Source of the DNA: Escherichia coli
GTDB taxonomy: Bacteria > Pseudomonadota > Gammaproteobacteria > Enterobacterales > Enterobacteriaceae
Length of the DNA: 64,000 bases
Direction: 5' to 3' (one strand)
Assembly: GCF_003018255.1 (NCBI RefSeq)
Contig: NZ_CP027440.1
Shown: positions 9,431-54,945 of the stretch, piece after piece
Position numbering within the stretch: the first letter of the stretch is position 1
How the letters are laid out: each line of letters starts with the position of its first letter
Notes under the pieces: model-generated
The model's input: only the letters and a program-made list of their open reading frames with translations
Told to the model about the DNA's origin: nothing
Databases searched by the model: none
Made by a program: the position numbers and the translations under genes

Positions 9431-9450
9431 TTCAGGCAATCGGGGTTAAT

Positions 9451-11280: not shown

Positions 11281-11343
11281 TCAGCAGCATAAAAAAGTGC
11301 CAGGATGAAGACTCCGTAAACGATTTCTCCGCGAGTCAATTGA

Positions 11344-11964: not shown

Positions 11965-11987
11965 TGCCAAACGCTTCATCAGAGTAA

Positions 11988-12017
11988 GTCGGATAAGGCG
12001 TTTATGCCGCATCCGAC
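11988..12017. repeat. REP (repetitive extragenic palindromic) element between convergent rhtC and rhtB
   Basis: Imperfect palindrome gtcggataaggcgtttatgccgcatccgac typical of enterobacterial REP units. Confidence 0.7.
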
Positions 12018-12025
12018 ATTATTTT

Positions 12026-12646
12026 TCACGCATGCCTCGCCGATGCCAACAACGCTCCTACCAGCATAAACAGCGAGCCAAAAATCTTATTCAATGCCTT
12101 CATCTGTTTCGGCCCTTTTATCCATAACGCAATCCGTTGAGCAAGTGTGGCGTAACCGATCATCACAATAATATCGACCACAATAGTGGTGACGCCGAGC
12201 ACGATATACTGCATCAGTTGTGGCTGCTGCGGCATGATGAATTGCGGAAATAGCGCCGCCAGAAACACAATACTTTTGGGATTGGTGAGATTGACAAAAA
12301 CTGCGCGCTGGAACAAATGTCGACGCGATTGAGTAGAGGCCAGCGGTTTAAGATCAATTGCGCCAGCGGCGCGCCACTGCTGGATCCCAAGCCAAATCAA
12401 GTAAGCTGCGCCTGCCCACTTCAACACTTCAAACGCAATCACTGAGCGGGAAAATAGCGTCCCCAACCCCACGCCAACCAGCACAATATGAATCGCCAGT
12501 CCGGTCTGAAGCCCAGCAATAGACGCCACCGCGCCGCGATAACCGTGGTTGAGCGAGGTGGTCATGGTGTTGATTGCACCAGAGCCTGGCGACAGGCTTA
12601 AAATGATCGATGTCAGCAGGTAGGCAAACCACCATTCTAAGGTCAT
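12026..12646 (-). CDS. rhtB: Homoserine/homoserine lactone efflux protein RhtB (LysE family)
   Basis: 206 aa LysE-family membrane protein; K-12 synteny. Confidence 0.9.
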
Positions 12647-12756
12647 GATGAACTCCCGGTGTGTCTATTTTTGTGCCACAATACGCTACTGTCGAAGCGT
12701 TGTGTCAGGCACGCTTAAAAAAACGATTTTACGTGGTTTAAGAGGCAGATTACCCG

Positions 12757-13779
12757 ATGTTTCAGCAGCAAAAAGACTGGGAAACAAGAGAAAACGCGTT
12801 TGCTGCTTTTACCATGGGACCGCTGACTGATTTCTGGCGTCAGCGTGATGAAGCAGAGTTTACTGGTGTAGATGACATTCCGGTGCGCTTTGTCCGTTTT
12901 CGCGCACAGCACCATGACCGGGTGATAGTCATCTGCCCGGGGCGTATTGAGAGCTACGTAAAATATGCGGAACTGGCCTACGACCTGTTCCATTTGGGGT
13001 TTGATGTCTTAATCATCGACCATCGCGGGCAGGGACGTTCCGGTCGCCTGTTAGCCGATCCGCATCTTGGGCATGTTAATCGCTTTAATGATTATGTCGA
13101 TGACCTGGCGGCATTCTGGCAACAGGAGGTCCAGCCTGGTCCGTGGCGTAAGCGCTATATACTGGCACATTCGATGGGCGGTGCGATCTCCACGTTATTT
13201 CTGCAACGCCATCCAGGTGTATGTGACGCCATTGCGCTAACTGCGCCAATGTTTGGGATCGTGATTCGTATGCCGTCATTTATGGCGCGGCAGATCCTTA
13301 ACTGGGCCGAAGCGCATCCACGTTTCCGTGATGGCTATGCAATAGGCACCGGGCGCTGGCGCGCGTTGCCGTTTGCTATCAACGTACTGACCCACAGCAG
13401 ACAGCGATATCGACGTAACTTACGCTTTTATGCTGATGACCCAACGATTCGCGTCGGTGGGCCGACCTACCATTGGGTACGCGAAAGTATTCTGGCTGGT
13501 GAACAGGTGTTAGCCGGTGCGGGTGATGACGCCACGCCAACGCTTCTCTTGCAGGCTGAAGAGGAACGCGTGGTGGATAACCGCATGCACGACCGTTTTT
13601 GTGAACTCCGCACCGCTGCGGGCCATCCTGTCGAAGGGGGACGACCGCTGGTAATTAAAGGTGCGTACCATGAGATCCTTTTTGAAAAGGACGCAATGCG
13701 CTCAGTCGCGCTCCACGCCATTGTTGATTTTTTCAACAGGCATAACTCACCCAGCGGAAACCGCTCTACAGAGGTTTAA
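12757..13779 (+). CDS. pldB: Lysophospholipase L2
   Basis: 340 aa alpha/beta hydrolase with HSMGG nucleophile elbow; K-12 synteny. Confidence 0.92.
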   Translation: MFQQQKDWETRENAFAAFTMGPLTDFWRQRDEAEFTGVDDIPVRFVRFRAQHHDRVIVICPGRIESYVKYAELAYDLFHLGFDVLIIDHRGQGRSGRLLADPHLGHVNRFNDYVDDLAAFWQQEVQPGPWRKRYILAHSMGGAISTLFLQRHPGVCDAIALTAPMFGIVIRMPSFMARQILNWAEAHPRFRDGYAIGTGRWRALPFAINVLTHSRQRYRRNLRFYADDPTIRVGGPTYHWVRESILAGEQVLAGAGDDATPTLLLQAEEERVVDNRMHDRFCELRTAAGHPVEGGRPLVIKGAYHEILFEKDAMRSVALHAIVDFFNRHNSPSGNRSTEV

Positions 13780-13786
13780 ATTTCTT

Positions 13787-14587
13787 ATGTACCAGGTTGT
13801 TGCGTCTGATTTAGATGGCACGTTACTTTCTCCCGACCATACGTTATCCCCTTACGCCAAAGAAACTCTGAAGCTGCTCACCGCGCGCGGCATTAACTTT
13901 GTGTTTGCGACCGGTCGCCACCACGTTGATGTAGGGCAAATTCGCGATAATCTGGAGATTAAGTCTTACATGATTACCTCCAATGGCGCGCGTGTTCACG
14001 ATCTGGATGGCAATCTGATTTTTGCTCATAACCTGGATCGCGACATTGCCAGCGATCTGTTTGGCGTGGTCAACGACAACCCGGACATCATTACTAACGT
14101 TTATCGCGACGACGAATGGTTTATGAATCGCCACCGCCCGGAAGAGATGCGCTTTTTTAAAGAAGCAGTGTTCAAATATGCGCTGTATGAGCCAGGATTA
14201 CTGGAGCCGGAAGGCGTCAGCAAAGTGTTCTTCACCTGCGATTCTCATGAGCAACTGCTGCCGCTGGAGCAGGCAATCAACGCTCGTTGGGGCGATCGCG
14301 TCAACGTCAGCTTCTCTACCCTAACTTGTCTGGAAGTGATGGCGGGCGGCGTTTCAAAAGGCCATGCCCTGGAAGCGGTGGCGAAGAAACTGGGCTACAG
14401 TCTGAAAGATTGTATTGCCTTTGGTGACGGGATGAACGACGCCGAAATGCTGTCGATGGCAGGTAAAGGCTGCATTATGGGCAGTGCGCACCAGCGTCTG
14501 AAAGATCTGCATCCGGAGCTGGAAGTGATTGGTACTAATGCCGAAGACGCGGTGCCGCATTATCTGCGTAAACTCTATTTATCGTAA
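13787..14587 (+). CDS. yigL: HAD-superfamily (Cof-type) sugar phosphatase YigL
   Basis: Start set at MYQVVASDLDGTLL (HAD motif I DxDGT) at 13787, just after the pldB stop; ORF track start at 13661 is an upstream in-frame extension overlapping pldB. Confidence 0.9.
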   Translation: MYQVVASDLDGTLLSPDHTLSPYAKETLKLLTARGINFVFATGRHHVDVGQIRDNLEIKSYMITSNGARVHDLDGNLIFAHNLDRDIASDLFGVVNDNPDIITNVYRDDEWFMNRHRPEEMRFFKEAVFKYALYEPGLLEPEGVSKVFFTCDSHEQLLPLEQAINARWGDRVNVSFSTLTCLEVMAGGVSKGHALEAVAKKLGYSLKDCIAFGDGMNDAEMLSMAGKGCIMGSAHQRLKDLHPELEVIGTNAEDAVPHYLRKLYLS

Positions 14588-14662
14588 TCGTTCTTTATTT
14601 GGTCAGTTGTCAACCTGATACTTCGCTACAATGGATACTCGTTAATCAAAGAGTTTTCCATT

Positions 14663-15562
14663 GTGGCGCTACTTATCATCACCACGATTCTGTGGGCCTT
14701 CTCCTTTAGCTTTTATGGCGAGTACCTTGCGGGGCACGTCGATAGCTATTTTGCAGTGCTGGTGCGCGTTGGCCTGGCGGCACTCGTGTTTCTGCCGTTT
14801 CTGCGTACCCGTGGCAATAGCCTGAAAACGGTTGGCCTGTATATGCTGGTGGGCGCGATGCAGCTCGGTGTGATGTATATGCTGAGTTTTCGCGCCTATC
14901 TCTACCTGACGGTCTCCGAACTGTTGCTGTTCACCGTACTGACTCCGCTCTACATCACGCTGATTTATGACATCATGAGTAAGCGCCGTCTGCGCTGGGG
15001 CTATGCTTTTAGCGCCTTGTTGGCGGTGATTGGTGCCGGAATTATTCGCTATGATCAGGTCACCGACCACTTCTGGACTGGCCTGCTGCTGGTGCAACTC
15101 TCCAATATCACTTTTGCCATCGGCATGGTGGGTTACAAACGCCTGATGGAAACTCGTCCGATGCCACAGCATAACGCCTTTGCGTGGTTCTATCTTGGTG
15201 CGTTCCTGGTGGCGGTGATTGCATGGTTTTTGCTGGGAAATGCGCAGAAAATGCCGCAAACCACGCTGCAATGGGGCATTCTGGTGTTTCTTGGCGTGGT
15301 GGCTTCCGGTATTGGCTACTTTATGTGGAACTACGGCGCGACTCAGGTGGACGCCGGAACGCTGGGCATTATGAATAATATGCACGTTCCGGCAGGGCTG
15401 TTGGTTAACCTGGCTATCTGGCACCAACAGCCGCACTGGCCAACGTTTATTACAGGCGCGCTGGTGATCCTGGCCTCACTGTGGGTGCATCGTAAGTGGG
15501 TCGCTCCGCGCTCTTCACAAACGGCAGATGATCGCAGGCGTGATTGCGCGCTGAACGAATAA
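14663..15562 (+). CDS. yigM: Inner membrane DMT-family transporter YigM (biotin transporter BioP)
   Basis: 299 aa polytopic membrane protein, GTG start; 3' end overlaps metR convergently. Confidence 0.85.
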
Positions 15563-16403
15563 ACGCTTCTGTAATCGGCTGACGCTGCTCGCCATCGCGC
15601 ACGGCGGCGTACAGTCGGCTCCACAAGCCTTCGCCCAGGGTTTTGGTGACCACCAGACCCTGGCGTTCAAAACTCTCCACCACCCAATGCGGTAGCGCAG
15701 CGATGCCCATCCGCGCGGCAACCATCTGAATCAACAACAAGGTGTTATCGACGCTTTTCAGTGACGGGCTAACGCCTGCGGGCTGAAGAAAATGCCGCCA
15801 GACATCCAGTCGGCTACGCTGCACCGGATAAATCAACAGCGTTTCGCTGGCGAGGTCTTCCGGCGTGATTCGCGTTTTCGCCGCCAGTGGATGGTCAGGT
15901 GCCAACACCAGACGCACTTCATAATCGAACATCGGCGAATAATGCAGGCCACTGCGCGGCAGAATATCGGAGGTCATCACCAGATCCAGCTCACCCTGCT
16001 GCAACGCGGGCTGCGGGTCAAACGTCACGCCCGATTTAAAATCCATCTCCACCTGCGGCCAGTTCTTATGGAAATTTTCTAACGCGGGCGTCAGCCACTG
16101 AATACAGCTATGGCACTCAATGGCAATGCGCAGGCGCGTCTGCTGCGGTTCATTGCAGGCTTGCAGTGCCTGGCTGATTTGAGGCAGCACCTGATTCGCC
16201 AGTTGCAACAGGATTTCTCCCTGCGGTGTAAACCGAAGCGGCTGGCTTTTACGCACAAATAGCCGGAAGCCAAGGCGTTGTTCCAGATCGCTAAACTGGT
16301 GAGACAGGGCGGATTGCGTTTGATGCAACGTCGCCGCAGCGGCTGCGAGTGAGCCGCAGTTCCGCAACGCTTGTAGCGTTTTCAGGTGTTTTACTTCGAT
16401 CAT
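15450..16403 (-). CDS. metR: LysR-family transcriptional activator MetR
   Basis: 317 aa; N-terminal LysR HTH ([20 protein letters not shown]); divergent from metE. Confidence 0.95.
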
Positions 16404-16520
16404 GAAAGTCCTTCACTTCGGCATGAATAATTTGCGCTTGAGGAATATACAGTAACCGCCAATTATGGATGTGTAAACATCTGGACGGCTAAATACTAAA
16501 AATTCCATAAGGGGCATATA

Positions 16521-18782
16521 ATGACAATTCTTAATCACACCCTCGGTTTCCCTCGCGTTGGCCTGCGTCGCGAGCTGAAAAAAGCGCAAGAGAGTTATTG
16601 GGCGGGGAACTCCACGCGTGAAGAACTGCTGGCTGTTGGGCGTGAATTACGTGCCCGTCACTGGGATCAACAAAAGCAGGCGGGTATCGACCTGCTGCCG
16701 GTGGGCGATTTTGCCTGGTACGATCATGTACTGACCACCAGTCTGCTGCTGGGTAACGTTCCGCCACGTCATCAGAACAAAGATGGTTCGGTAGATATCG
16801 ACACCCTGTTCCGTATTGGTCGTGGACGTGCACCGACTGGCGAACCTGCGGCGGCAGCGGAAATGACCAAATGGTTTAACACCAACTATCACTACATGGT
16901 GCCGGAGTTCGTTAAAGGCCAACAGTTCAAACTGACCTGGACGCAGCTGCTGGAGGAAGTGGACGAGGCGCTGGCGCTGGGCCACAAGGTCAAGCCCGTG
17001 CTGCTGGGGCCGGTTACCTACCTGTGGCTGGGTAAAGTGAAAGGTGAACAGTTTGATCGCCTGAGCCTGCTGAACGACATTCTGCCGGTTTATCAGCAAG
17101 TGTTGGCAGAACTGGCAAAACGCGGCATTGAGTGGGTACAGATCGACGAACCAGCGCTGGTACTGGAACTACCGCAGGCGTGGCTGGACGCATACAAACC
17201 CGCTTACGACGCGCTCCAGGGCCAGGTGAAACTGCTGCTGACTACCTATTTTGAAGGCGTAACGCCAAATCTCGACACGATTACTGCGCTGCCTGTTCAG
17301 GGGCTGCATGTGGACCTTGTACATGGTAAAGATGACGTTGCTGAACTGCACAAGCGTCTGCCTTCTGACTGGCTACTGTCTGCGGGTCTGATCAATGGTC
17401 GTAACGTCTGGCGCGCCGATCTTACCGAGAAATATGCGCAAATTAAGGACATTGTCGGCAAACGCGATTTGTGGGTGGCATCTTCCTGCTCGTTGCTGCA
17501 CAGCCCCATCGACCTGAGCGTGGAAACGCGTCTTGATGCAGAAGTGAAAAGCTGGTTTGCCTTCGCCCTACAAAAATGCCATGAACTGGCACTGCTGCGC
17601 GATGCGCTGAACAGTGGTGATACGGCGGCTCTGGCAGAATGGAGCGCTCCGATTCAGGCGCGTCGTCACTCTACCCGTGTCCATAATCCGGCGGTAGAAA
17701 AGCGTCTTGCAGCCATTACCGCCCAGGACAGTCAGCGTGCGAATGTCTATGAAGTGCGTGCTGAAGCCCAGCGTGCGCGTTTTAAACTGCCCGCGTGGCC
17801 GACTACCACGATTGGTTCCTTCCCGCAAACCACGGAAATTCGTACACTGCGTCTGGATTTCAAAAAGGGTAATCTCGACGCCAACAACTACCGCACGGGC
17901 ATTGCGGAACATATCAAGCAGGCCATTGTCGAGCAGGAACGTTTGGGACTGGATGTGCTGGTACATGGCGAGGCCGAGCGTAATGACATGGTGGAATACT
18001 TTGGCGAGCATCTGGATGGCTTTGTCTTTACGCAAAACGGTTGGGTACAGAGCTACGGTTCCCGCTGCGTGAAGCCACCGATTGTCATTGGTGACGTTAG
18101 CCGCCCGGCACCAATTACCGTGGAGTGGGCGAAATATGCACAATCGCTGACCGACAAACCGGTGAAAGGGATGCTGACGGGGCCGGTAACCATACTCTGC
18201 TGGTCATTCCCGCGTGAAGATGTCAGCCGTGAAACCATCGCCAAACAAATTGCGCTGGCGCTGCGTGATGAAGTGGCGGACCTGGAAGCCGCTGGAATTG
18301 GCATCATCCAGATTGATGAACCGGCACTGCGCGAAGGTTTACCGCTGCGTCGCAGCGACTGGGATGCCTATCTCCAGTGGGGCGTGGAGGCTTTCCGTAT
18401 CAACGCCGCCGTGGCGAAAGATGACACACAAATCCACACTCACATGTGTTACTGCGAGTTCAACGACATCATGGATTCGATTGCGGCGCTGGACGCAGAC
18501 GTCATCACCATCGAAACCTCGCGTTCCGACATGGAGTTGCTGGAGTCGTTTGAAGAGTTTGATTATCCAAATGAAATTGGTCCAGGCGTCTATGACATTC
18601 ACTCGCCAAACGTACCGAGCGTGGAATGGATTGAAGCCCTGCTGAAGAAAGCGGCAAAACGCATTCCGGCAGAGCGTCTGTGGGTAAACCCGGACTGTGG
18701 CCTGAAAACGCGCGGCTGGCCAGAAACCCGCGCGGCACTGGCGAACATGGTGCAGGCGGCGCAGAATTTGCGTCGGGGATGA
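16521..18782 (+). CDS. metE: Cobalamin-independent methionine synthase
   Basis: 753 aa; duplicated UroD-like barrel, C-terminal zinc-binding His/Cys/Glu region (HMCYCEF...); divergent from metR. Confidence 0.97.
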
Positions 18783-18821
18783 TGAGTATTAACGAGTCAT
18801 TGTAAATTGCAGTACGATAAT

Positions 18822-18847
18822 GGCTTCCAGTACTGGAAGCCATTTTG
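18822..18847 (+). terminator. Rho-independent terminator downstream of metE (possibly bidirectional)
   Basis: Inverted repeat ggcttccag/ctggaagcc followed by attttgc. Confidence 0.6.
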
Positions 18848-18950
18848 CATGAGTGCCAGATTGAAGCAGATCTTCAGGAGTAGAAATAACCGAATCGTTT
18901 TTTTCGCAAAACACAGTTTTGAGTGATTCCGTTCAGTAATCAACGCTACG

Positions 18951-19211
18951 TTATTTATTCTCACGTTGCACGAGATTGTATCCCTTTTCACTAACGTGGT
19001 AGTGAGGCATAGACTTATGCCCGCTATCCTCAATAATAACCAAACCTTCGTTAGCTAATTTGTTAACAATATTAACAATATTACCGAATCCTGGTATTTG
19101 CCTTATGGATAGTGTGCGATCGAGATTCATCCAGTTCCAGTTTATATCTTTCTCAGTCATAACGTTCAGCACGTTAAGTTCATTTTTAGTGATCACGATA
19201 TTCTGTACCAA
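18951..19211 (-). CDS. Candidate immunity protein, paralog 2 (distal copy)
   Basis: 86 aa; clearly paralogous to the 19271..19528 ORF (shared NVL.VM.EKDI.W.WM.LDRTL.IR.IPGFGN..NIV.KL...GLV); AT-rich; downstream of the Hcp-fusion gene. Confidence 0.6.
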   Translation of the reverse strand: MVQNIVITKNELNVLNVMTEKDINWNWMNLDRTLSIRQIPGFGNIVNIVNKLANEGLVIIEDSGHKSMPHYHVSEKGYNLVQRENK

Positions 19212-19270
19212 AATTGATGAGTATCTTATTGAAAGATCACAATGTAAATCATGCTCCTGTAATGGCTGGA

Positions 19271-19528
19271 TCAGAAGAGGTTGTCTTGTTGTTCTTTGAT
19301 AAGATTCAATCCATATTGAGAAACTCTGTAGCGTGGTTTAGAGTTGCCCTCACCATTTACGATATCAACCAACCCATGATTAACCAGCTTTGTTACGATA
19401 TTCGCTACGTTGCCAAATCCTGGAATATTTCGTATAGCTAAAGTACGATCCAGCACCATCCAGCTCCAGTCAATATCTTTCTCAGCCATAACTTTCAGCA
19501 CGTTAAATTCAACTATCGTAATCGTCAT
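19271..19528 (-). CDS. Candidate immunity protein, paralog 1 (proximal copy)
   Basis: 85 aa; start codon overlaps stop of the Hcp-fusion gene by 4 bp (ATGA at 19525-19528), i.e. translationally coupled; paralog of the 18951..19211 ORF. Confidence 0.65.
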   Translation of the reverse strand: MTITIVEFNVLKVMAEKDIDWSWMVLDRTLAIRNIPGFGNVANIVTKLVNHGLVDIVNGEGNSKPRYRVSQYGLNLIKEQQDNLF

Positions 19529-20658
19529 TTTTTTGCATCCGGATGAAATAAGTCAGTATCTTTAATTTTAAAGTCTTCTAGAGTTGCAGTATGTACATTA
19601 TTCCATAATTCATATCCATCTAAACCTTTCGGTTCACCTGTTTCCCATCCTAAATTACAATAACGCTGATACTCGCGACATTCATGAGTATAGTAGTTCA
19701 GATCGTATTTTTCAGGAAGCAATTCTTTATTTGCTATTTTCTTTAGCCTTGAAATCATTACATCATTAGCTGGATCATGATCAAATCTGGAGATATGCTT
19801 TTCAACAATAGCGATACCTTCCCTGTTGATTGTTACGCCATCTATCGTCAGGTTTTCAATTGGACCACCGGCAAGGTCGGGATTAAATGGTCTTCCTGAT
19901 ACTGCTCCTCTGGCTCCGAAATGCTCAAGTGATTCCAAATCAGGGAATCTCATTCTTCCCAGAACAACTCCAGCAACTATTGAAGCACCAGCGATGAGTA
20001 ACCCTTTGTTATCCATAACTTGATCGTAACCAGCAGGTGCATCTCCTCCCAACTTGTTTGCTGTTTCCCTGAATCCTTCGATATTCCCATTGTATATGCC
20101 GCCAGCAGCAAGCAGTCTGCCAACCGCTTTACTATTGAGTGTTTTGAGGCCATTATCATCTTTAGTTTTTGGCCGTGGTATAAACAGACGGTTGTAGTTA
20201 TCGGGAAATGCCAAATAACTAAATTCAGTATTAGCAATCAGATGCCTGGAGAGTATATATTCATAACTGGCAGTGATGGTTTCTGTATCCAGATTGTTCT
20301 CAGTAAACAGGTGATTGATTGCTGATAAGAGCGCGCCGCGGAGTTGAATGTTGTAATATTTCTCCCATCGACCAAATCTATTGATCCGATAGAAGTCAAA
20401 CTCCATGAACAACTGCTCGTTATTGTTAATAGCGTTAATAAGTAACGGGGAGCTTTTGTCAATCAACTTACAGAAACTAAGGCCATGTAATTGTGACCCT
20501 TTGCCTGTATTCGTAATACTATTAGATAGCGAGAACGCGAAGATTTCATCTTCATGGCCAATCTGCCAGCGATTACCTATTGATGCGCTCGTTCCGCAAC
20601 GAGAGGAAATACATCCTTGTTGTTCTCCGGTTATGGTCAGGTAAATAATATCACTCAT
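19525..20658 (-). CDS. Hcp (T6SS tube protein) domain fused to C-terminal extension of unknown function: candidate Hcp-ET type effector
   Basis: 377 aa; first ~165 aa resemble enterobacterial Hcp from memory (YLTITGEQQGCISSRCGTSASIGNRWQIGHEDEIFAF...KLIDKSSPLLINAI...EFDFYRI); ~210 aa C-terminal extension with GxxxG-rich hydrophobic segment and His/Glu/Tyr-rich tail (YYTHECREYQRY); AT-rich. Confidence 0.75.
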   Translation of the reverse strand: MSDIIYLTITGEQQGCISSRCGTSASIGNRWQIGHEDEIFAFSLSNSITNTGKGSQLHGLSFCKLIDKSSPLLINAINNNEQLFMEFDFYRINRFGRWEKYYNIQLRGALLSAINHLFTENNLDTETITASYEYILSRHLIANTEFSYLAFPDNYNRLFIPRPKTKDDNGLKTLNSKAVGRLLAAGGIYNGNIEGFRETANKLGGDAPAGYDQVMDNKGLLIAGASIVAGVVLGRMRFPDLESLEHFGARGAVSGRPFNPDLAGGPIENLTIDGVTINREGIAIVEKHISRFDHDPANDVMISRLKKIANKELLPEKYDLNYYTHECREYQRYCNLGWETGEPKGLDGYELWNNVHTATLEDFKIKDTDLFHPDAKK

Positions 20659-21049
20659 CCTTGAAAAACCTTTTGTTAATTCTTTTGTGAAAGAAAAATA
20701 GTATTGTTATTTTTTACCTTTATTTACGCCCAAAAGGGATGAACTAAAATGTGAAAAACAAAATGTTTCACTTTAATATCTTTTTATCAGGAAGGTCTGA
20801 GATAATTTATAATTAATGTGAATGTGTTGATAATAATTAATGTTTGTTTGAGAATGGGAGTTGATGGTAAATCTCTAAGGTGTCTGCCAGTGAAGAGACT
20901 CATTTATGACTATGACTTGCCGACTTTCTTAAGGTCAAATAGCGGAGTCGTGCTCTCCAATCAATTCATACTGATTATTTTTTGGGGGACAGAGATGGCA
21001 GCAAAATGCACTCGTTCACTCACCATCTCAAATATAGACTAAGAGGAAA
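20659..21049 (-). promoter_or_regulatory. AT-rich upstream/promoter region of the Hcp-fusion operon
   Basis: About 390 bp strongly AT-rich non-coding DNA upstream of the Hcp-fusion start; no precise -35/-10 assigned. Confidence 0.4.
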
Positions 21050-22123: not shown

Positions 22124-22888
22124 ATGTCCAAGTCTGATGTTTTTCATCTCGGCCTCACTAAAAACGATTTACAAGGGGCTACGCTTGCCATCGTCCCTGG
22201 CGACCCGGATCGTGTGGAAAAGATCGCCGCGCTGATGGATAAGCCGGTTAAGCTGGCATCTCACCGCGAATTCACCACCTGGCGTGCAGAGCTGGATGGT
22301 AAACCTGTTATCGTCTGCTCTACCGGTATCGGCGGCCCGTCTACCTCTATTGCTGTTGAAGAGCTGGCACAGCTGGGCATTCGCACCTTCCTGCGTATCG
22401 GTACAACGGGCGCTATTCAGCCGCATATTAATGTGGGTGATGTCCTGGTTACCACGGCGTCTGTTCGTCTGGACGGCGCGAGCCTGCACTTCGCACCGCT
22501 GGAATTCCCGGCTGTCGCTGATTTCGAATGTACGACTGCGCTGGTTGAAGCGGCGAAGTCAATTGGTGCCACCACTCACGTTGGTGTGACGGCTTCTTCT
22601 GATACCTTCTACCCGGGTCAGGAACGTTACGATACTTACTCTGGTCGCGTAGTTCGTCACTTTAAAGGTTCTATGGAAGAGTGGCAGGCGATGGGCGTAA
22701 TGAACTATGAAATGGAATCTGCAACCCTGCTGACCATGTGTGCAAGTCAGGGCCTGCGTGCCGGTATGGTAGCGGGGGTTATCGTTAACCGCACCCAGCA
22801 AGAGATCCCGAATGCTGAGACGATGAAACAAACCGAGAGCCATGCGGTGAAAATCGTGGTGGAAGCGGCGCGTCGTCTGCTGAAATAA
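22124..22888 (+). CDS. udp: Uridine phosphorylase
   Basis: Start at [11 protein letters not shown] (253 aa); PNP/UDP phosphorylase family motifs; K-12 synteny. Confidence 0.95.
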
Positions 22889-22914
22889 AAAACGCTCCCC
22901 AACTTCGGGGAGCG
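22886..22914. terminator. Bidirectional rho-independent terminator between udp and the convergent tctA-like gene
   Basis: Hairpin cgctcccc-aacttc-ggggagcg; A-run on + strand 5' side gives a T-run on the minus strand. Confidence 0.6.
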
Positions 22915-22921
22915 ATATCAG

Positions 22922-24412
22922 TTACTGACGCCGTAAACGCATTATTTTGCGGATTATTGGCGTCAGTAGCGTAAAGGCTGCCAGAGTTAGCAATGCCAGA
23001 GTGATCGGTCGGGTATACAGAAAGTCCAGTGAACCCCCTGAAAGCGACAGCGCACGGCGAAAATTACTTTCTGCCATCGGGCCCATAATCAATGCCAGCA
23101 CTACGGGTGATGCCGGATATCCTCCTTTCTGCATGAAATAGCCCACCACGCCTGCAATCAGCATAATGCCAACATCAAACAGGCTATTGTTCAACGCATA
23201 AGTCCCGACCACACAAAGTGCGAGGATCATCGGTGTGAGAATATTGCCGGGGATCTTCACCACGTTACCGATGACTTTCAAAGAGAGCAGTCCAAGAACT
23301 AGCAGCATGAAGTAACAAAAGATCATGCCGACAAACAGTGTATAAACCATATCGCCGTGGTCGGTAAACATCAGCGGGCCTGGTTGCATTCCCTGTAACG
23401 TTAACGCGCCCAGCATGATGGCGGTTACCGCATCGCCAGGGATCCCCAGCGTCAGCATAGGTAACAATGCGCCACCGGTGCAGCCATTCGCGCCTGCCTC
23501 ACAGGAGGCCACAGCTTTAATTTCACCCTTACCAAAGTTTTCTGGTGTCTTACTGAAACGACGAGTTTCGTTATAGGCAACAAAAGCTGCAATATCCGCC
23601 CCCGCACCGGGGATCATGCCGATAAAAACCCCTAATCCTGATGAGCGCAAAATGGTTAATGCAATGCGGCGTAGTGTTTGCCAGGGCAGTAACAGACTGC
23701 CGATAGCCACCTTCGCCCCCTGACGAATTTGCTGGTTTTGCTCCATAGAGCGGAATGCTTCTGAAGCAGCAAATAAACCAATCATCACCGGGATAAATGG
23801 CACATTCATCAGCTCCACAAATCCACCTGTAAACCGTGGAAAACCGCCCATTGGATCAAGGCCTATCGTTGCGATCAGCAATCCGCCAACCCCGGCAATC
23901 AGCCCTTTAATCAGCGACTCACCGGAAATACTGGCAATAATACTCAGTCCGAAGGTTGCCAGGGCGAAGGACTCCGAGGCACTAAATTTCAGCGCCCAAC
24001 TGGCAAGTACCGGAGAGAGAAACATCAGCACGATAATGCTGAGCGTTCCGCCACTAAAGGAAGAGAACGTGGCGGCACTCAATGCCAGCCCTGCTTTTCC
24101 CTGTTTCGTCAGCTCATAACCATCAATAGCGGTGGCTGCGGCGGCAGGCGTTCCGGGAATTTTGAGCAAAATTGCGGTGATAGAACCACCGTAGACGCCA
24201 CCAAAAAAGACGCCGCAAATCATCAACAAGCCAGAAACAGGCTCCATGCCGTAGGTGAAAGGCAGCAAAATCGCCACACCCATGGTCGCTGTCAGACCAG
24301 GCAAAGCGCCAATCACAATACCCAGCATCACCCCAAAAGTGGCAAACAGCAGCGCCTGAGGATTATTGAGTAATGTCGAAAAACCCTGAGTTAAAAGTTC
24401 ACTTTCAAACAT
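22922..24412 (-). CDS. Tripartite tricarboxylate transporter large permease, TctA family
   Basis: 496 aa polytopic membrane protein with internal duplication typical of TctA; follows tctB/tctC-like genes. Confidence 0.8.
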   Translation of the reverse strand: MFESELLTQGFSTLLNNPQALLFATFGVMLGIVIGALPGLTATMGVAILLPFTYGMEPVSGLLMICGVFFGGVYGGSITAILLKIPGTPAAAATAIDGYELTKQGKAGLALSAATFSSFSGGTLSIIVLMFLSPVLASWALKFSASESFALATFGLSIIASISGESLIKGLIAGVGGLLIATIGLDPMGGFPRFTGGFVELMNVPFIPVMIGLFAASEAFRSMEQNQQIRQGAKVAIGSLLLPWQTLRRIALTILRSSGLGVFIGMIPGAGADIAAFVAYNETRRFSKTPENFGKGEIKAVASCEAGANGCTGGALLPMLTLGIPGDAVTAIMLGALTLQGMQPGPLMFTDHGDMVYTLFVGMIFCYFMLLVLGLLSLKVIGNVVKIPGNILTPMILALCVVGTYALNNSLFDVGIMLIAGVVGYFMQKGGYPASPVVLALIMGPMAESNFRRALSLSGGSLDFLYTRPITLALLTLAAFTLLTPIIRKIMRLRRQ

Positions 24413-24424
24413 TGCTGGCCCCTG

Positions 24425-24934
24425 TTATTCGAAAAATGTGCCGACAGGCAATGGCACCTGTAACGCTTCGACAAACAGCAACCAGAGGATTGCCGTTAAC
24501 AGCAGCGCAATACCCGGTGTGAGTACCCATCGCCTGTAGCCCATCAACGTCATAATGACGATGAGGAAAACAGGAGTAGTAATGAGATAACCGCAGTAGC
24601 TCATCGCCACAATATAAAACGCGGTTGCCGCAATTCCTGTTGCTGTTTTCCTGAATGCCGGTTTTTCCTGTGCGTTGGCGCAAGAGGCTGGTTTTGCCTG
24701 CAAAAGATCGCGTATCACCAGCAAGACAGCGAGCACAATCAGGGCACAGGCATAGAAGGTAGGGAAGGCACTTGCACCGGGATCCGTTTCAATGGCAGTT
24801 GCTGGAAAATCAGCGGCATTAATCATCACCGCGCCAGCAACCACACAAAGTAACAGCGCCACCACCATCGTTGATGAAAGGCGCTTGCGGTGCGGTACGG
24901 CGAGTTGAGCAACAGACTGTTTTGTGTTCATCAA
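24425..24934 (-). CDS. Tripartite tricarboxylate transporter small subunit, TctB family
   Basis: 169 aa with about four hydrophobic helices, located between TctC-like and TctA-like genes. Confidence 0.7.
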   Translation of the reverse strand: MMNTKQSVAQLAVPHRKRLSSTMVVALLLCVVAGAVMINAADFPATAIETDPGASAFPTFYACALIVLAVLLVIRDLLQAKPASCANAQEKPAFRKTATGIAATAFYIVAMSYCGYLITTPVFLIVIMTLMGYRRWVLTPGIALLLTAILWLLFVEALQVPLPVGTFFE

Positions 24935-24947
24935 CCGTACCTCAGGT

Positions 24948-25922
24948 TTATTTTTTCAGGCCCAGGCGAGTCAGCAACTCGTCAAAGTACTTTTCCTGTT
25001 CGCTGATTTGGGTCTGGAAGCTGGCAGCGTCAAGCCATGCATAGTTGAGATTCAACTTTTGCAGTGCATCCTGGAATGCAGGCTCTTCAGCCGTCTCTTT
25101 TGCTGCCTTTGCCAGAACATCCACCACATCCTGCGGCGTTTTTTGCGACACAATCAGGCCGCGCCAGGTGCCGATGGAGAGATCAACGCCTTTCTCTTTT
25201 AACGTCGGGACGTCAGGCATGGTTTTCATTCGCTCATCCGCCATCACTACCAGTGTCTTCAGCTTGCCGCCATTCACATGGTTGATAACTTCTCCTGGGC
25301 TTACGGAAACCGCTTCAATATGCCCGCCTAACAGGCCTGTAATGGCAGGGGCTGCGCCGTCATACGGGACATGAGAAAACTTTGTGCCCGTTTTGTCTTC
25401 CAGTGCAGCTGCCGCCAGATGCCAGATAGCTCCGGTGCCTGAGTTACCAATGCGTACTTTTCCGGGATTCGCTTTGGAGTAAGCCATAAATTCTTCATAG
25501 CTATTCCACGGCGCATCGGCACGGACTGTGATAGCAGCCGGATCCGCATTCAGACGGGCAATGGGTTTAAAGTCGCTGGTTTTAAAACGCACCATTCCGA
25601 GGCTGGGAAGGGTGGTCAGTTCAACCGTGCCTAAACCAATTTTGTAACCGTTAGGGCGGGCAGCGGCGATTTCACTCAGGCCGATAGCACCGCCTCCGCC
25701 AGGTTTATTGATAACCCCGATGCTGACGGGTAAATGGTTTTTGGCGGCATCAGCAAAGGCACGGGCAACCAGATCCGTACCGCCTCCGGCAGCGTAGGGA
25801 ACGACTAACTCGATCTGTTTGGTTGGGTAGGAGGCAGCCTGTACAGGCGCAATGCTGAGGGCAGCGCCTGCAAGAAGTACCATTGCAGCCATTTTTTTCG
25901 GTAAGGTAAGATGTTTTATCAT
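24948..25922 (-). CDS. Tripartite tricarboxylate transporter periplasmic substrate-binding protein, TctC/Bug family
   Basis: 324 aa with signal peptide; Bug-family signature near N-terminus (YPTKQIELVVPYAAGGGTDLVAR). Confidence 0.8.
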   Translation of the reverse strand: MIKHLTLPKKMAAMVLLAGAALSIAPVQAASYPTKQIELVVPYAAGGGTDLVARAFADAAKNHLPVSIGVINKPGGGGAIGLSEIAAARPNGYKIGLGTVELTTLPSLGMVRFKTSDFKPIARLNADPAAITVRADAPWNSYEEFMAYSKANPGKVRIGNSGTGAIWHLAAAALEDKTGTKFSHVPYDGAAPAITGLLGGHIEAVSVSPGEVINHVNGGKLKTLVVMADERMKTMPDVPTLKEKGVDLSIGTWRGLIVSQKTPQDVVDVLAKAAKETAEEPAFQDALQKLNLNYAWLDAASFQTQISEQEKYFDELLTRLGLKK

Positions 25923-25946
25923 TGCTTTTATATCCTTATTTATCAG

Positions 25947-26576
25947 TTAGTTGCTATTTAAATTGTTCCATGCGTTCATAAACAGTACTGCATTTTCATA
26001 GACTTGCTCTGGCGTCATGCCGGGGCGATATAGCGCAGAACCGAGGCCAAAGCCGTTTGCGCCGTGGCTCAGATAACGCGCCATGGTTTCCGGTGTGATA
26101 CCGCCAACCGGTAACATCGGAACGGATTGTGGAATAACCGCACGCCAGGCTTTGGTAACTTCTGGCGTAATTTGTTCAGCCGGGAACAGCTTGATGGCAT
26201 TAGCACCATGTTCAATGGCAGCAAAGGCTTCGGTGGGCGTGGCGACGCCAGGCGCACAATACATACCCAGCGCACGGGCGCGACGGATCACCGCAGTATC
26301 GCAATGCGGCATCACGATAATCTGGCCCCCAGCCTCTTTAACCGCAACCACCTGCTCTACCGAAAGCACAGTTCCGGCTCCGACCAGGCAGTCCTTAGGC
26401 AGGGCGTCGCGCAGTAAACTGATACTTTGCAACGCCTCCGGCGAGTTCATAGGAATCTCAATCAGGCGGAATCCGGCGGCGTACAGTTTTTCACCGATGG
26501 CGACAATCTCATCCGGTTTCACGCCGCGTAAAATGGCGACTAACCCGGTTTTTTGCAAAAGTGTATTAAATGGCAT
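25947..26576 (-). CDS. 2-dehydro-3-deoxy-6-phosphogalactonate / KDPG aldolase family protein (DgoA-like)
   Basis: Aligns by eye with E. coli DgoA (LVAILRGVKPDE...IEIPMNSP...GAGTVL...GGITPE); start chosen at MPFNTLLQ (209 aa); ORF track start at 26651 is an upstream extension. Confidence 0.8.
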   Translation of the reverse strand: MPFNTLLQKTGLVAILRGVKPDEIVAIGEKLYAAGFRLIEIPMNSPEALQSISLLRDALPKDCLVGAGTVLSVEQVVAVKEAGGQIIVMPHCDTAVIRRARALGMYCAPGVATPTEAFAAIEHGANAIKLFPAEQITPEVTKAWRAVIPQSVPMLPVGGITPETMARYLSHGANGFGLGSALYRPGMTPEQVYENAVLFMNAWNNLNSN

Positions 26577-27570
26577 GGGTACATTCCCTGGCGTTGGTGG
26601 ACAGTAACCCGGCAGCGTGGGCGATTCGCCATAATCCATGTTCAGTGGCATTAGGAATGGCGTGTATCTGTCTGTCGGGAAAAACGTGGCTGAATGCTTG
26701 TGAATAGCGGCTGTTCAGATTTGCGCTACCGATTAAGGCGATCGGTGTTGTGGCGGGTAAATCACGTAGCAAACTGGATGCCAGACCACATAATTCATGG
26801 CCTATCAGTAATCCGGAAAGGTAATCCCCCTGCGAGGACGACGTAAGATTACTGGTCAGCAGGCGCGAACGGGTCGAAAACAGCGTCGATAATAATCCGG
26901 TCTGATGATGCTCTTGTGCTGCTGTCAGCCCGTGGGTGAAGGCATCCCAGTGCGGTTCATCTCCAGGATGCATGGTGGCACCGAGAATCGAATGGCGGGA
27001 TAAAACATCAAATAACTCGCCCGTCATAAAGGTTCGGAAATCGGTAATGGTGTTGTTTTCAACTACTGCCCATTTCGCATGTGTGCCGGGTAAGCCTATC
27101 AGCACTGGCATACCCTGATGGATCGCGTTTTGCAGGGCCGGTTCCATCGAGATAGCACCGAAGATTTGTGTCTCTTCGCCACGCATCACTTCGGGCATTT
27201 CACCTTCTTTAATCACGCCAGGAATGATGTGCAGCATTGTCTGCTGCTGGTGGATAACAGGCGTCAACTGCTTCGCCAGACCCTCGAGAGTGACCGGGCA
27301 AGGTAAATAAGCTGCTGATTGCCACCCTTGCGCACTGCCGAGCATGCCGCAAGCCAGTACCGGGCATGGGGTTTGTGCCAGCCAGTCGCCGCAGACACGT
27401 AAAAACGTATCGTGGAAAGCGTCCTCACGTGTTGCTGCCTGGGAGGGTAATTTCATGATCCCCCAGGGGAATTCACGTTTTTCTTGTGGATTTGGTGATT
27501 CGCCAAAACGCCATGCCCGAAGCGATGACGTTCCCCAGTCCAGGGCAATAAATGAGGGTGCTCCCGGCAT
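26566..27570 (-). CDS. 2-dehydro-3-deoxygalactonokinase family protein (DgoK-like)
   Basis: 334 aa; N-terminal IALDWGTSSLRAW and internal VMRGEETQIFG and PGTHAKW motifs resemble DgoK as recalled; 3' end overlaps aldolase start by 11 nt. Confidence 0.8.
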   Translation of the reverse strand: MPGAPSFIALDWGTSSLRAWRFGESPNPQEKREFPWGIMKLPSQAATREDAFHDTFLRVCGDWLAQTPCPVLACGMLGSAQGWQSAAYLPCPVTLEGLAKQLTPVIHQQQTMLHIIPGVIKEGEMPEVMRGEETQIFGAISMEPALQNAIHQGMPVLIGLPGTHAKWAVVENNTITDFRTFMTGELFDVLSRHSILGATMHPGDEPHWDAFTHGLTAAQEHHQTGLLSTLFSTRSRLLTSNLTSSSQGDYLSGLLIGHELCGLASSLLRDLPATTPIALIGSANLNSRYSQAFSHVFPDRQIHAIPNATEHGLWRIAHAAGLLSTNARECTHAI

Positions 27571-27593
27571 TAGTCGTTTCCTTTAATCATGGT

Positions 27594-28361
27594 TTATTTA
27601 TCTTTGCGGACGTGCTTACCCCAGCCCAGTTCAGCGGATATCTCTTCTGCACAGGATTTGACGTAAGGTGCCAGTTCTTCCAGACGCGCCAGCGACATAT
27701 ACGTGGTGGTACTGGCGACAGAAATAGCCGCCACAATTTCATCCCGGGCGTTGTAAACCGGCGCTGCAACGCAACGGATAGTCGGCTCGTTCTCTTCCAG
27801 ATCAAAAGCAAAACCACTGGCGGCATAACGACGCATGTTCTGAATAAATGCGCCCAGTTTTGTTTCATCACCACAGGTCTTAAACAGCGTGCGCCACTCT
27901 TCTTCTGTTCGGTTGAGGATCAATGCCTTGCCGATGCCGGTGATTGCCAGTGGCATGCGATGGCCTGGGCGTGAGCGCATTTCCAGCCCGCGCTGACTGT
28001 TGATCTTCTCCAGATACAGCACTTCGTCGCCTTCAACGATCCCCAGATGCACGGTGTCCAGGGTGTAACGGGCAAGGCGTTGCAAAACGGGCTGGGCAAT
28101 TTCGTACAGTGAGGTGCTTTCCAGTGCTCTGGCACCGAATTCGATCAGTTTGGCACCCAGTTGGTAGCCCTGCGTTGGGACATGGCGCAGGTAGCGTTGT
28201 TCCACCAGAACGGTGACTAAACGATGGGTTGTGCTCCGGGTCGTGCCGGTGAACTCGCCGATACTTTTTAGGTCATGGCAGCCGTTATAAACAGCATTAA
28301 GAACCGCCAGTCCACGTAATAACGTTTGTGCGCCTGCGGTGGTTGAAGAGGTTTCTGCCAT
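27594..28361 (-). CDS. IclR-family transcriptional regulator
   Basis: Start chosen at MAETSSTTAG (ATG 28361, RBS-like aggag upstream) giving about 255 aa; N-terminal wHTH plus C-terminal IclR effector-binding domain; 23 bp upstream of the kinase gene. Confidence 0.8.
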   Translation of the reverse strand: MAETSSTTAGAQTLLRGLAVLNAVYNGCHDLKSIGEFTGTTRSTTHRLVTVLVEQRYLRHVPTQGYQLGAKLIEFGARALESTSLYEIAQPVLQRLARYTLDTVHLGIVEGDEVLYLEKINSQRGLEMRSRPGHRMPLAITGIGKALILNRTEEEWRTLFKTCGDETKLGAFIQNMRRYAASGFAFDLEENEPTIRCVAAPVYNARDEIVAAISVASTTTYMSLARLEELAPYVKSCAEEISAELGWGKHVRKDK

Positions 28362-28421
28362 ACGTTTCTCCTGATGATATTGCTGAAGTGTTCCACATAA
28401 TGACGTGGGGAAAAGGTGATA

Positions 28422-28459
28422 TATCCCACAATATAAACTCCATCTCATATTGTGGGATA
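28422..28459. promoter_or_regulatory. Perfect 13-bp inverted repeat, candidate operator
   Basis: tatcccacaatat (28422-28434) and atattgtgggata (28447-28459) separated by 12 bp, located upstream of the IclR-family regulator gene and of rmuC. Confidence 0.5.
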
Positions 28460-28577
28460 AAATAATGAAAATTAACGATCGTTTTGCGTAGCGCCTCGCA
28501 GGAAATGCCTTTCCAACTGGACGTTTGTACAGCACAATTCTATTTTGTGCGGGTAAGTTGTTGCGTCAGGAGGCGTT

Positions 28578-54926: not shown

Positions 54927-54945
54927 TTCAATGTAAATTACATAA

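What the first reader, a model, noticed from the sequence alone, without database searches (positions are those of the whole stretch)
28422..28459. Perfect 13-bp inverted repeat between the IclR regulator gene and rmuC
tatcccacaatat and atattgtgggata, separated by 12 bp, sit about 60 bp upstream of the IclR-family regulator start (minus strand) and about 120 bp upstream of rmuC. A perfect palindrome of this length is unlikely by chance and is a good candidate operator for the IclR-family regulator. It may also couple island regulation to rmuC expression.
Basis: seen in the sequence. Interest (0 to 1): 0.45.

Follow-up and report, generated by a model that had tools for sequence, protein, structure and literature searches.

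The report
Operator of an islet's IclR regulator
The palindrome is real and is most likely the DNA site where the repressor-type regulator of a small, strain-variable E. coli sugar-acid gene islet binds its own promoter, an ordinary arrangement for this regulator family; nothing here links it to the neighbouring rmuC gene.

Summary
The 13-bp perfect inverted repeat (28422-28434 / 28447-28459, 12-bp spacer) is confirmed. It is rare by chance: 0.027 such repeats are expected per 64-kb window. It lies in a 5.6-kb islet (IclR-type regulator, dgoK-like kinase, dgoA-like aldolase, tctCBA) inserted between udp and rmuC in 1456 of 5426 complete E. coli genomes. It sits 22 bp inside the islet's right junction and is absent from genomes without the islet.

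Upstream regions of 77 orthologous regulators (Phytobacter, Klebsiella, Brenneria, Achromobacter, Bordetella, Collimonas, Burkholderia, Paraburkholderia, Caballeronia) carry two TCYCA-N5-TGRGA boxes. The two best boxes are exactly 20 bp apart in 74 of the 77. A matrix built only from those regions ranks 28443-28457 first and 28424-28438 third in the whole window.

The repeat is therefore the outer half-sites and centres of two tandem IclR boxes, 19 bp apart. That is the family's known layout for binding as a tetramer. Hairpin stability is not conserved, and there is no Rfam match, terminator or repeat at the other islet end.

The operator reading is supported. Coupling to rmuC is not: the boxes travel with the regulator, not with rmuC. 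This is a new member of a known kind and of modest interest.

The parts
28422..28434 (.). Left arm of the perfect inverted repeat (TATCCCACAATAT)
28447..28459 (.). Right arm of the perfect inverted repeat (ATATTGTGGGATA). G28452 is A in strains 81009 and TUM14697.
28443..28457 (-). Box A, distal to the regulator gene. It reads TCCCACAATATGAGA on the minus strand. As a 17-mer it is ATCCCAC-AAT-ATGAGAT, with both half-sites (TCCCA and TGAGA) intact. It is the best matrix hit in the whole window (13.7 bits).
28424..28438 (+). Box B, proximal to the regulator gene. It reads TCCCACAATATAAAC, with a good outer half-site and a degenerate inner one. It is the third-best matrix hit in the window (10.8 bits). 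Its centre is 19 bp from the centre of box A.
28439..28442 (.). The 4-bp spacer between the boxes. Three of its four positions vary among Escherichia lineages, against 2 of 30 box positions.
28391..28405 (-). Possible third, weaker box (CGTCATTATGTGGAA, 10.7 bits, fifth-best hit in the window), 33 bp from the centre of box B. It is not conserved in Escherichia sp. E1V33 or in other genera, so confidence is low.
28430..28435 (-). Inferred -10 hexamer TATATT (5 of 6) of the islet operon promoter, inside box B. Phytobacter has TATATT and K. spallanzanii has TATAAA at the same place. Inference only; no start-site data.
   Evidence: read by eye; below the threshold of the scan
28453..28458 (-). Inferred weak -35 hexamer ATCCCA (3 of 6), 17 bp upstream of the TATATT. 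It is the outer half-site of box A. Inference only.
   Evidence: read by eye
27594..28361 (-). IclR-family regulator gene (255 aa, HTH plus effector domain) and first gene of the islet operon. Its Shine-Dalgarno sequence AGGAGA lies at 28367-28372.
26566..27570 (-). 2-dehydro-3-deoxygalactonokinase-like gene, 23 bp downstream of the regulator gene
25947..26576 (-). 2-dehydro-3-deoxy-6-phosphogalactonate aldolase gene
22922..25922 (-). tctC (Bug family), tctB and tctA genes of a tripartite tricarboxylate-type transporter
28481..28482 (.). Right junction of the islet. Sequence from 28482 onward is shared with K-12-type genomes. The left junction is at about 22883, in the last codons of udp.

Best explanation
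The inverted repeat is the operator of the islet's own IclR-family regulator. It consists of two adjacent IclR-type boxes of the form (A)TCYCA-N5-TGRGA(T). Box A is 28443-28457 and box B is 28424-28438, with centres 19 bp apart, about two helical turns. Each box would be bound by one regulator dimer, and the two dimers together would form a tetramer on one face of the DNA.

The perfect 13-bp arms are the two outward-facing half-sites plus the AT-rich box centres. The inward-facing half-sites are TGAGA, which is still a good match, and a degenerate TAAAC.

The boxes lie 70 and 89 nt upstream of the regulator's start codon, in the only non-coding stretch of the islet. They therefore control the single promoter of the six-gene operon (regulator, dgoK-like kinase, dgoA-like aldolase, tctCBA), including autoregulation.

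Most likely mode (inferred, about 0.6): repression. The boxes would cover a weak promoter, ATCCCA-17-TATATT, and the repressor would be released by a 2-keto-3-deoxy sugar acid or D-galactonate. Activation is the alternative mode.

Shown here: the repeat itself, its islet origin, the family of the regulator, conservation of the motif and its spacing upstream of orthologues, and the specificity of the matrix hit. Inferred: actual binding, oligomeric state, promoter position, direction of regulation and the effector.
For: 1. The adjacent gene encodes a full-length IclR-family protein. NCBIfam matches BhcR and KdgR over the whole length but below their cutoffs. PDB sequence matches include IclR, KdgR and TtgV.
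2. The HTH recognition-helix residues (S43 T44 H46 R47 L48) are invariant across orthologues down to 52% identity, so a shared DNA motif is expected.
3. All 80 orthologue loci keep the regulator next to the kinase and aldolase.
4. Upstream of these regulators the same box recurs: ATCCCACATATAGGGAT-like in Phytobacter, K. spallanzanii, Brenneria, Achromobacter and Bordetella, and TCCCAATATATGA / TCACATATTGGAG in Paraburkholderia, Caballeronia and Burkholderia. An unbiased 15-mer count finds it as the top shared word.
5. The two best boxes are exactly 20 bp apart in 74 of 77 non-Escherichia loci, usually in inverted orientation, as in E. coli.
6. A matrix built without Escherichia sequences ranks 28443-28457 first and 28424-28438 third of 127,972 window positions. 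The tandem-pair score is 24.5 bits against 12.5 for the runner-up, and none of 200 simulated windows reaches it.
7. Among Escherichia lineages the boxes vary at 2 of 30 columns against 22 of 90 elsewhere in the 120-bp region (Fisher p = 0.026). Three of the four spacer columns vary.
8. Published comparative work reports that IclR-family regulators in 94 orthologous groups use tandem palindromes 18-22 bp apart, interpreted as tetramer binding. It gives a 17-bp group-1 layout, WTTYCRYW3RYGRAAW. It also lists a related alphaproteobacterial group (AZC_2273, M446_4911) with ATCCCATATatTGGGAT sites in tandem at 20 bp (PMC8222616).
Against: There is no binding, footprint or expression data for this regulator in any organism.

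No confident sigma-70 promoter was found on the regulator strand. The scan found none, and the proposed ATCCCA-17-TATATT matches only 8 of 12 positions, so the geometry behind repression is a guess.

The spacing is 19 bp in Escherichia against 20 bp almost everywhere else. Box B has a poor inner half-site.

In Paraburkholderia the boxes sit at about -40 and -60 relative to a TTGGAG-18-TACAAT promoter, which would suit an activator as well as a repressor.

The matrix was trained on the orthologue loci, so site detection there is partly circular. The constant spacing and the E. coli test are not.
Confidence: 0.8

Rival explanations
1. The repeat works as a nucleic-acid hairpin: a 5'-UTR structure, attenuator or terminator in RNA, or a cruciform in DNA. 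On this reading it is not a protein-binding site.
For: Either strand folds into a stable stem-loop: -16.1 kcal/mol on the plus strand and -20.3 kcal/mol on the minus strand, with z-scores of -3.9 and -5.3.
Against: The stem is AT-rich and is not followed by a U tract, and the terminator scan does not call it. There is no Rfam family; the only hit is a spurious miRNA model at E = 0.38.

The long hairpin is weak or absent at the orthologous position in Phytobacter, Achromobacter, Bordetella, Collimonas and Burkholderia, yet the two boxes and their spacing persist there.

Both arm changes seen within E. coli are one-sided with no compensating change: G->A at 28452, and A->T in strain SCPM-O-B-8794.

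What is conserved across classes is specific sequence (TCYCA, TGRGA), not pairing. With the inferred -10 inside box B, the full repeat would not even be transcribed into the operon mRNA.
Confidence: 0.05
2. The operator also controls rmuC. The bound regulator would repress or activate the divergent rmuC promoter, or block a read-through transcript that starts inside the islet.
For: The site lies in a divergent intergenic region, 119-156 nt upstream of the rmuC start codon. One promoter-like match on the plus strand (ATGATA-16-CATAAT, 28374-28401) would send transcripts through the boxes towards rmuC.
Against: That promoter match is at the chance level: 1 found, 0.8 expected.

The 96 bp upstream of rmuC (28482-28577) are nearly identical in K-12-type genomes that lack the islet. 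There rmuC is insulated from udp by a terminator, so its own promoter is presumably inside that stretch, at least 60 bp from the boxes.

The boxes follow the regulator in genomes where rmuC is not adjacent.
Confidence: 0.08
3. The repeat is a leftover of islet acquisition: a terminal inverted repeat, attachment site or recombination site at the islet's right end.
For: It lies only 22 bp from the right junction.
Against: No matching direct or inverted repeat of 10 nt or more exists at the left junction. The islet holds no integrase or transposase gene. There is one copy per genome.

The same boxes occur upstream of orthologues in chromosomal contexts that are not islets.
Confidence: 0.02
4. The repeat is the binding site of a different regulator (for example CRP or another IclR paralogue of E. 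coli), or simply AT-rich promoter DNA that happens to be palindromic.
For: The arm contains TGTGG, which loosely resembles a CRP half-site. E. coli has several IclR-family paralogues.
Against: There is no TGTGA-N6-TCACA arrangement. The motif co-occurs with this orthologous group of regulators in distant genera that lack the E. coli paralogues' regulons. Chance is excluded.
Confidence: 0.05

Closest known systems
Tandem palindromic operators of IclR-family regulators (comparative catalogue of Suvorova and Gelfand 2021, PMC8222616)
   Same: Each box is a 17-bp group-1-type site with 5-nt half-sites and an AT-rich centre. Compare WTTYCRYW3RYGRAAW with ATCYCAY-W3-RTGRGAT here. Two boxes lie 18-22 bp apart centre to centre, which the authors interpret as tetramer binding. 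The site centres are within the usual distance of the regulated gene's start.
   Different: Positions 3 and 15 of the box are C/G here instead of T/A. I did not find the E. coli islet regulator or its sites in the supplementary text that was available, and those files were truncated.
Predicted sites of the AZC_2273 / M446_4911 / Mnod_6621 / Hbal_2755 group of IclR regulators (alphaproteobacteria; PMC8222616, Supplementary Table 2)
   Same: The box is nearly identical (ATCCCATATatTGGGAT, ATCCCATATTgTGGGAc). It occurs in tandem at exactly 20 bp, often as one strong and one weak site, next to sugar-acid-type genes.
   Different: Different taxa and different regulated genes (SDR dehydrogenase, enolase-superfamily enzyme, MFS transporter). 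Orthology to the E. coli regulator was not tested. E. coli has 19-bp spacing.
TtgV bound to the ttgGHI operator (tetramer on a 42-bp operator; PDB 2XRO)
   Same: An IclR-family repressor that binds as a tetramer to two adjacent pseudo-palindromes overlapping a promoter. The islet regulator matches the TtgV chain by sequence at E = 3.8e-11. The operator details are from my own knowledge and from citations in PMC8222616.
   Different: Different operator sequence, different effectors (aromatic compounds), and an efflux-pump target rather than a catabolic operon.
E. coli IclR, AllR and KdgR operators
   Same: AT-rich palindromes of 15-20 bp recognised by the same fold: TGGAAATNATTTCCA, KTTGGAAWAWTWTTCCAAC and RWWGAAACGNCGTTTCAKKA (Table 1 of PMC8222616). 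KdgR likewise controls 2-keto-3-deoxy sugar-acid genes.
   Different: The half-site sequence differs (TCYCA). The regulator scores below the curated cutoffs of all these equivalog models.
E. coli DgoR and the dgoRKADT operon
   Same: An autoregulated operon with the regulator gene first, followed by a 2-dehydro-3-deoxygalactonokinase and a KDPGal aldolase (my own knowledge).
   Different: DgoR belongs to the GntR family and has a different operator. The islet lacks a dehydratase and uses a TctCBA-type transporter instead of DgoT.

Membership tests
IclR-family operator (tandem boxes) | Lies in the promoter region of, or next to, a gene for a full-length IclR-family regulator (HTH plus IclR effector domain) | tested here: met
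   BhcR, KdgR, PcaR and IclR models matched over the full length; PDB IclR, KdgR, TtgV; Pfam PF09339 and PF01614 on homologues; annotation
IclR-family operator (tandem boxes) | A (pseudo)palindromic box of 15-17 bp with conserved 5-nt half-sites and an AT-rich centre | tested here: met
   Matrix consensus TCCCAATATATGAAC, 15.6 bits. Box A is ATCCCAC-AAT-ATGAGAT. The layout matches the group-1 consensus of PMC8222616.
IclR-family operator (tandem boxes) | Two boxes with centres 18-22 bp apart | tested here: met
   19 bp in Escherichia and 20 bp in 74 of 77 other loci. The literature range is 18-22 bp.
IclR-family operator (tandem boxes) | The motif is conserved upstream of orthologous regulators or operons (phylogenetic footprint) | tested here: met
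.
IclR-family operator (tandem boxes) | Overlaps or adjoins the regulated promoter | tested here: inconclusive
   No confident sigma-70 match on the regulator strand. There is only an 8-of-12 candidate, ATCCCA-17-TATATT. In Paraburkholderia, box 2 overlaps the -35 of TTGGAG-18-TACAAT.
IclR-family operator (tandem boxes) | Specific binding by the cognate protein, relieved or enhanced by an effector | not testable with these tools
   Needs EMSA, footprinting or DAP-seq
Intrinsic terminator | GC-rich stem followed by a U tract | tested here: not met
   The AT-rich stem is not called by the scan. The flanking sequence is AAAATAATG on the plus strand and ATATCACC on the minus strand.
Known structured RNA (Rfam) | Match to a covariance model at the gathering score | tested here: not met
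   The only hit is mir-2024 at 18.7 bits against a gathering score of 69, E = 0.38
Repetitive extragenic palindrome or other dispersed repeat | Many copies per genome | tested here: not met
   One place per genome in 1456 genomes, and no other copy in the window
Mobile-element terminal repeat or attachment site | A matching repeat at the other end of the insertion, or a recombinase gene in the element | tested here: not met
   No shared repeat of 10 nt or more at the left junction, and six metabolic, transport or regulatory genes only

The most novel reading that the evidence does not exclude
In islet-bearing E. coli the regulator bound at 28424-28457 would also tune the divergent rmuC promoter, or a read-through transcript, so that availability of a sugar acid modulates a DNA-recombination gene. 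A variant: the Escherichia-specific 19-bp spacing and perfect long-range symmetry would give the site a second role as a cruciform or hairpin that other genera lack.
Probability: 0.06. Interest if true: 0.5.

Novelty: new member of a known kind. Interest (0 to 1): 0.25.

Why it matters
The udp-rmuC islet is present in about a quarter of complete E. coli genomes, including BL21 and many extraintestinal pathogenic strains. The only mention I found in the literature describes it as six ORFs of unknown function (PMC3349570).

A defined operator gives a direct handle on it. It provides a probe for binding assays and effector screens, which would reveal the substrate of the kinase-aldolase-transporter module. 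It also gives a way to build an inducible promoter or biosensor, and a matrix for finding further regulon members.

The result also illustrates a general point. A long perfect palindrome in one species can be the accidental sum of two shorter family-typical boxes. Conceptually, though, this is a routine case of an autoregulated IclR-type catabolic operon.

Tried and rejected
- Same motif upstream of the kinase or tctC: the intergenic gaps are only 13-24 bp and no matches were found.
- Part of the conserved rmuC promoter: rejected, because genomes without the islet align only from 28482.
- Terminator or known RNA family: none.
- Conserved hairpin: not conserved outside Escherichia.
- Repeat or attachment site at the islet ends: none.
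- A clear sigma-70 promoter for the operon: the scan found none on the minus strand. A CRP-like TGTGG-N6-TCAGC near 28380-28400 was considered by eye and dropped, because it lies too close to the ribosome-binding site to serve any promoter.
- Third box at 28391-28405: it scores well in E. coli but is not conserved in Escherichia sp. E1V33 or in other genera, so it is kept only as a note.
- A 17-mer consensus search (ATCCCACATATAGGGAT, up to 4 mismatches) missed E. coli and the Burkholderia group because their box centres differ. It was replaced by the matrix approach.
- Literature searches for experimental work on this islet or on IclR-type galactonate regulators found no binding study.
- One locus (L074) showed no boxes within 600 bp. 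I did not pursue it.

Full report
**Observation**

The window carries a perfect 13-nt inverted repeat, TATCCCACAATAT (28422-28434) and ATATTGTGGGATA (28447-28459), separated by 12 nt. The flanking bases do not extend it. In 300 first-order Markov simulations of the window, perfect inverted repeats of at least 13 nt with a loop of at most 30 nt occurred 0.027 times per window. The arm has no other close copy in the 64 kb. The stated distances are right: 61 nt to the regulator's ATG at 28361 on the minus strand, and 119 nt to the rmuC GTG at 28578.

**Context**

The window is Escherichia coli. Between udp and rmuC lies a 5.6-kb islet (about 22883-28481) with six genes, all on the minus strand and separated by only 13-24 bp:
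- an IclR-family regulator (27594-28361)
- a 2-dehydro-3-deoxygalactonokinase-like gene
- a KDPGal aldolase gene
- tctC, tctB and tctA

The islet is present in 1456 of 5426 complete E. coli genomes, including BL21 and many urinary and avian isolates. Genomes without it, such as K-12 DH1, align only from window 28482 onward. In K-12 the udp terminator occupies the place of the islet. The palindrome is therefore islet DNA, 22 bp inside the right junction, and not part of the conserved rmuC upstream region. The 120 bp from 28362 to 28481 are the only non-coding stretch of the islet, so they must hold the promoter of the whole operon. [quoted passage not shown] 6 ORFs with unknown functions' (PMC3349570).

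**The regulator**

It is a full-length IclR-family protein. NCBIfam matches BhcR, KdgR, PcaR/PcaU, IclR and AllR over the whole length, but all below their curated cutoffs. PDB sequence matches include T. maritima IclR, KdgR and TtgV. Homologues at 52-73% identity occur in Phytobacter, Pseudocitrobacter, Klebsiella, Serratia, Brenneria, Pseudomonas and very many Burkholderiales. One of them is named 'D-galactonate regulator' by its source. The recognition-helix residues S43 T44 H46 R47 L48 are invariant in a 14-sequence alignment, so a shared DNA motif is expected.

**Comparative test**

A scan of representative genomes returned 80 loci. In every one the regulator sits next to the kinase and aldolase. 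Upstream of the regulators the same element recurs:
- Phytobacter: TTCCCACATATTGGGAT
- K. spallanzanii: ATCCCATATATAGGGAT
- Brenneria: ATCCCTATATGTGGGAC
- Achromobacter and Bordetella: ATCCCACATA[CT]AGGGAAT
- Paraburkholderia, Caballeronia and Burkholderia: TCCCAATATATGA followed by TCACATATTGGAG

An unbiased count of shared 15-mers finds these as the top words.

I built a 15-bp matrix from the non-Escherichia upstream regions only (152 sites, 54 unique, consensus TCCCAATATATGAAC, 15.6 bits) and scanned the whole window. The best of 127,972 positions is 28443-28457 on the minus strand (TCCCACAATATGAGA, 13.7 bits). The third best is 28424-28438 on the plus strand (TCCCACAATATAAAC, 10.8 bits). 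As a tandem pair they score 24.5 bits against 12.5 for the next pair in the window. None of 200 simulated windows reached that score; the maximum was 23.2.

**Architecture**

In 74 of 77 non-Escherichia loci the two best boxes are exactly 20 bp apart centre to centre. They are usually in inverted orientation, with the TCCCA halves facing outward. K. spallanzanii and Brenneria also have a weaker partner box at 20 bp. In the three Escherichia loci the distance is 19 bp.

The E. coli inverted repeat is therefore the two outward half-sites plus the AT-rich centres of two boxes. Written as 17-mers:
- Box A is ATCCCAC-AAT-ATGAGAT, with both halves good.
- Box B is ATCCCAC-AAT-ATAAACT, with a degenerate inner half.

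This strong-plus-weak tandem fits what is already described for the family. Suvorova and Gelfand report a 17-bp group-1 layout (WTTYCRYW3RYGRAAW). They find tandem sites 18-22 bp apart in 94 orthologous groups and interpret them as tetramer binding on one DNA face. They also list an alphaproteobacterial group (AZC_2273, M446_4911, Mnod_6621) with ATCCCATATatTGGGAT sites in tandem at 20 bp (PMC8222616). The box centres at -70 and -89 from the start codon fall within the usual range they report.

**Variation within Escherichia**

Five intact islets were compared: the window, strains 81009, TUM14697 and SCPM-O-B-8794, and Escherichia sp. E1V33. Variable columns are:

| Region | Variable columns |
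|---|---|
| Two boxes | 2 of 30 |
| Spacer between boxes | 3 of 4 |
| Rest of the 120-bp region | 19 of 86 |

Boxes against everything else give a Fisher one-sided p of 0.026. One box change is C->T at box position 6, which is G->A at 28452 on the plus strand. It is found in 81009 and TUM14697, which belong to the identity band that holds 578 genomes. It moves the box towards the cross-genus consensus and breaks the perfect palindrome without any compensating change. The conserved core is 28424-28457, as the box model predicts.

**Rival readings**

*Hairpin.* Both strands can fold: -16.1 and -20.3 kcal/mol. However, the stem is AT-rich with no U tract, and no Rfam family matches. The long hairpin is weak or absent at the orthologous sites of Phytobacter, Achromobacter, Bordetella, Collimonas and Burkholderia, where the boxes persist. 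The changes seen are one-sided.

*Mobility site.* There is no matching repeat at the left junction, no recombinase gene, and one copy per genome.

*rmuC coupling.* rmuC is adjacent to the regulator only in Escherichia and K. spallanzanii. In Phytobacter the divergent neighbour is ubiE, and in Brenneria and the Burkholderiales it is something else. The 96 bp upstream of rmuC are the same as in K-12. The only plus-strand promoter-like match inside the islet is at the chance level. Coupling cannot be excluded, but nothing supports it.

**Mechanism**

*Shown:* the site, its specificity, its conservation and its family-typical geometry.

*Inferred:*
- A tetramer, as a dimer of dimers, of the islet regulator binds boxes A and B.
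- The operon promoter is probably ATCCCA-17-TATATT on the minus strand (-35 at 28453-28458, -10 at 28430-28435). Its -10 is conserved as TATATT in Phytobacter and TATAAA in K. spallanzanii. Binding would then cover both hexamers and repress, with autoregulation because the regulator is the first gene.
- An effector such as 2-keto-3-deoxygalactonate or D-galactonate would relieve repression.

In Paraburkholderia the boxes overlap the -35 of a clear TTGGAG-18-TACAAT promoter and sit at about -40 and -60. That geometry would suit activation as well. I put repression at roughly 0.6 and activation at 0.25.

**Verdict**

The operator interpretation is supported and refined to two tandem IclR boxes rather than one long palindrome. 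The rmuC idea is unsupported. This is a new, uncharacterised member of a well-known kind of element.

Noticed in passing
window 28391-28405 (minus strand): A third matrix hit, CGTCATTATGTGGAA (10.7 bits, fifth best in the window), lies 33 bp (about three helical turns) from box B, between the boxes and the ribosome-binding site. It is present in E. coli but changed at four positions in Escherichia sp. E1V33, and it has no counterpart in other genera.
   Followed up: partly
window 22883-28481 (whole islet): The islet has a KDGal-type kinase, a KDPGal aldolase and a TctCBA transporter but no galactonate dehydratase. This suggests direct uptake of a 2-keto-3-deoxy sugar acid, or reliance on the chromosomal DgoD. 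Paraburkholderia orthologue clusters add an SDR dehydrogenase, which looks like a De Ley-Doudoroff pathway.
   Followed up: partly
window 22880-22915, and L002 2455-2500: The islet replaces the K-12 udp terminator and adds one codon to udp (RRLLK* instead of RRLL*). A new GC-rich hairpin, CGCTCCCCAACTTCGGGGAGCG, sits between the convergent udp and tctA genes and is probably a bidirectional terminator.
   Followed up: no
L001, L003, L004, L084 (other Escherichia genomes): The islet is decaying in several lineages. tctA is frameshifted in strain 14EC047. Escherichia sp. E1V33 lacks tctCBA altogether. Strain SCPM-O-B-8794 has an internally deleted regulator (217 aa). Strain HS-02 keeps only a remnant next to rmuC that includes a damaged copy of the operator.
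   Followed up: partly
L005 (Phytobacter massiliensis) and L006 (Klebsiella spallanzanii): The same islet with tctCBA sits at the same chromosomal neighbourhood in other Enterobacteriaceae: next to rmuC in K. spallanzanii and directly next to ubiE-ubiJ-ubiB in Phytobacter. The locus may be ancestral and repeatedly lost, or a recurrent insertion hotspot.
   Followed up: no
window about 8400-21000: By collinearity with strain UPEC_U013, the window also holds the tkt1 genomic island described in extraintestinal pathogenic E. coli (PMC3349570). Its genes include a ptsG-like gene, tkt, RpiR and LysR regulators, a cytosine permease, arcC and fdrA. It lies just upstream of ysgA and udp.
   Followed up: no
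window 18819-18844, 54944-54969 and 62068-62103: Three other perfect inverted repeats turned up in the chance test. Two are 26-bp spacer-less palindromes: AATGGCTTCCAGT/ACTGGAAGCCATT, apparently inside the fdrA-like gene, and AAAGCCCGTGAAT/ATTCACGGGCTTT. The third is a hairpin with 16-17-nt arms starting GAAAAAAGGCGACAGA, which looks like a terminator.
   Followed up: no
L074 (Burkholderia sp. E7m39): This is the only orthologue locus with no recognisable boxes within 600 bp upstream of the regulator.
   Followed up: no
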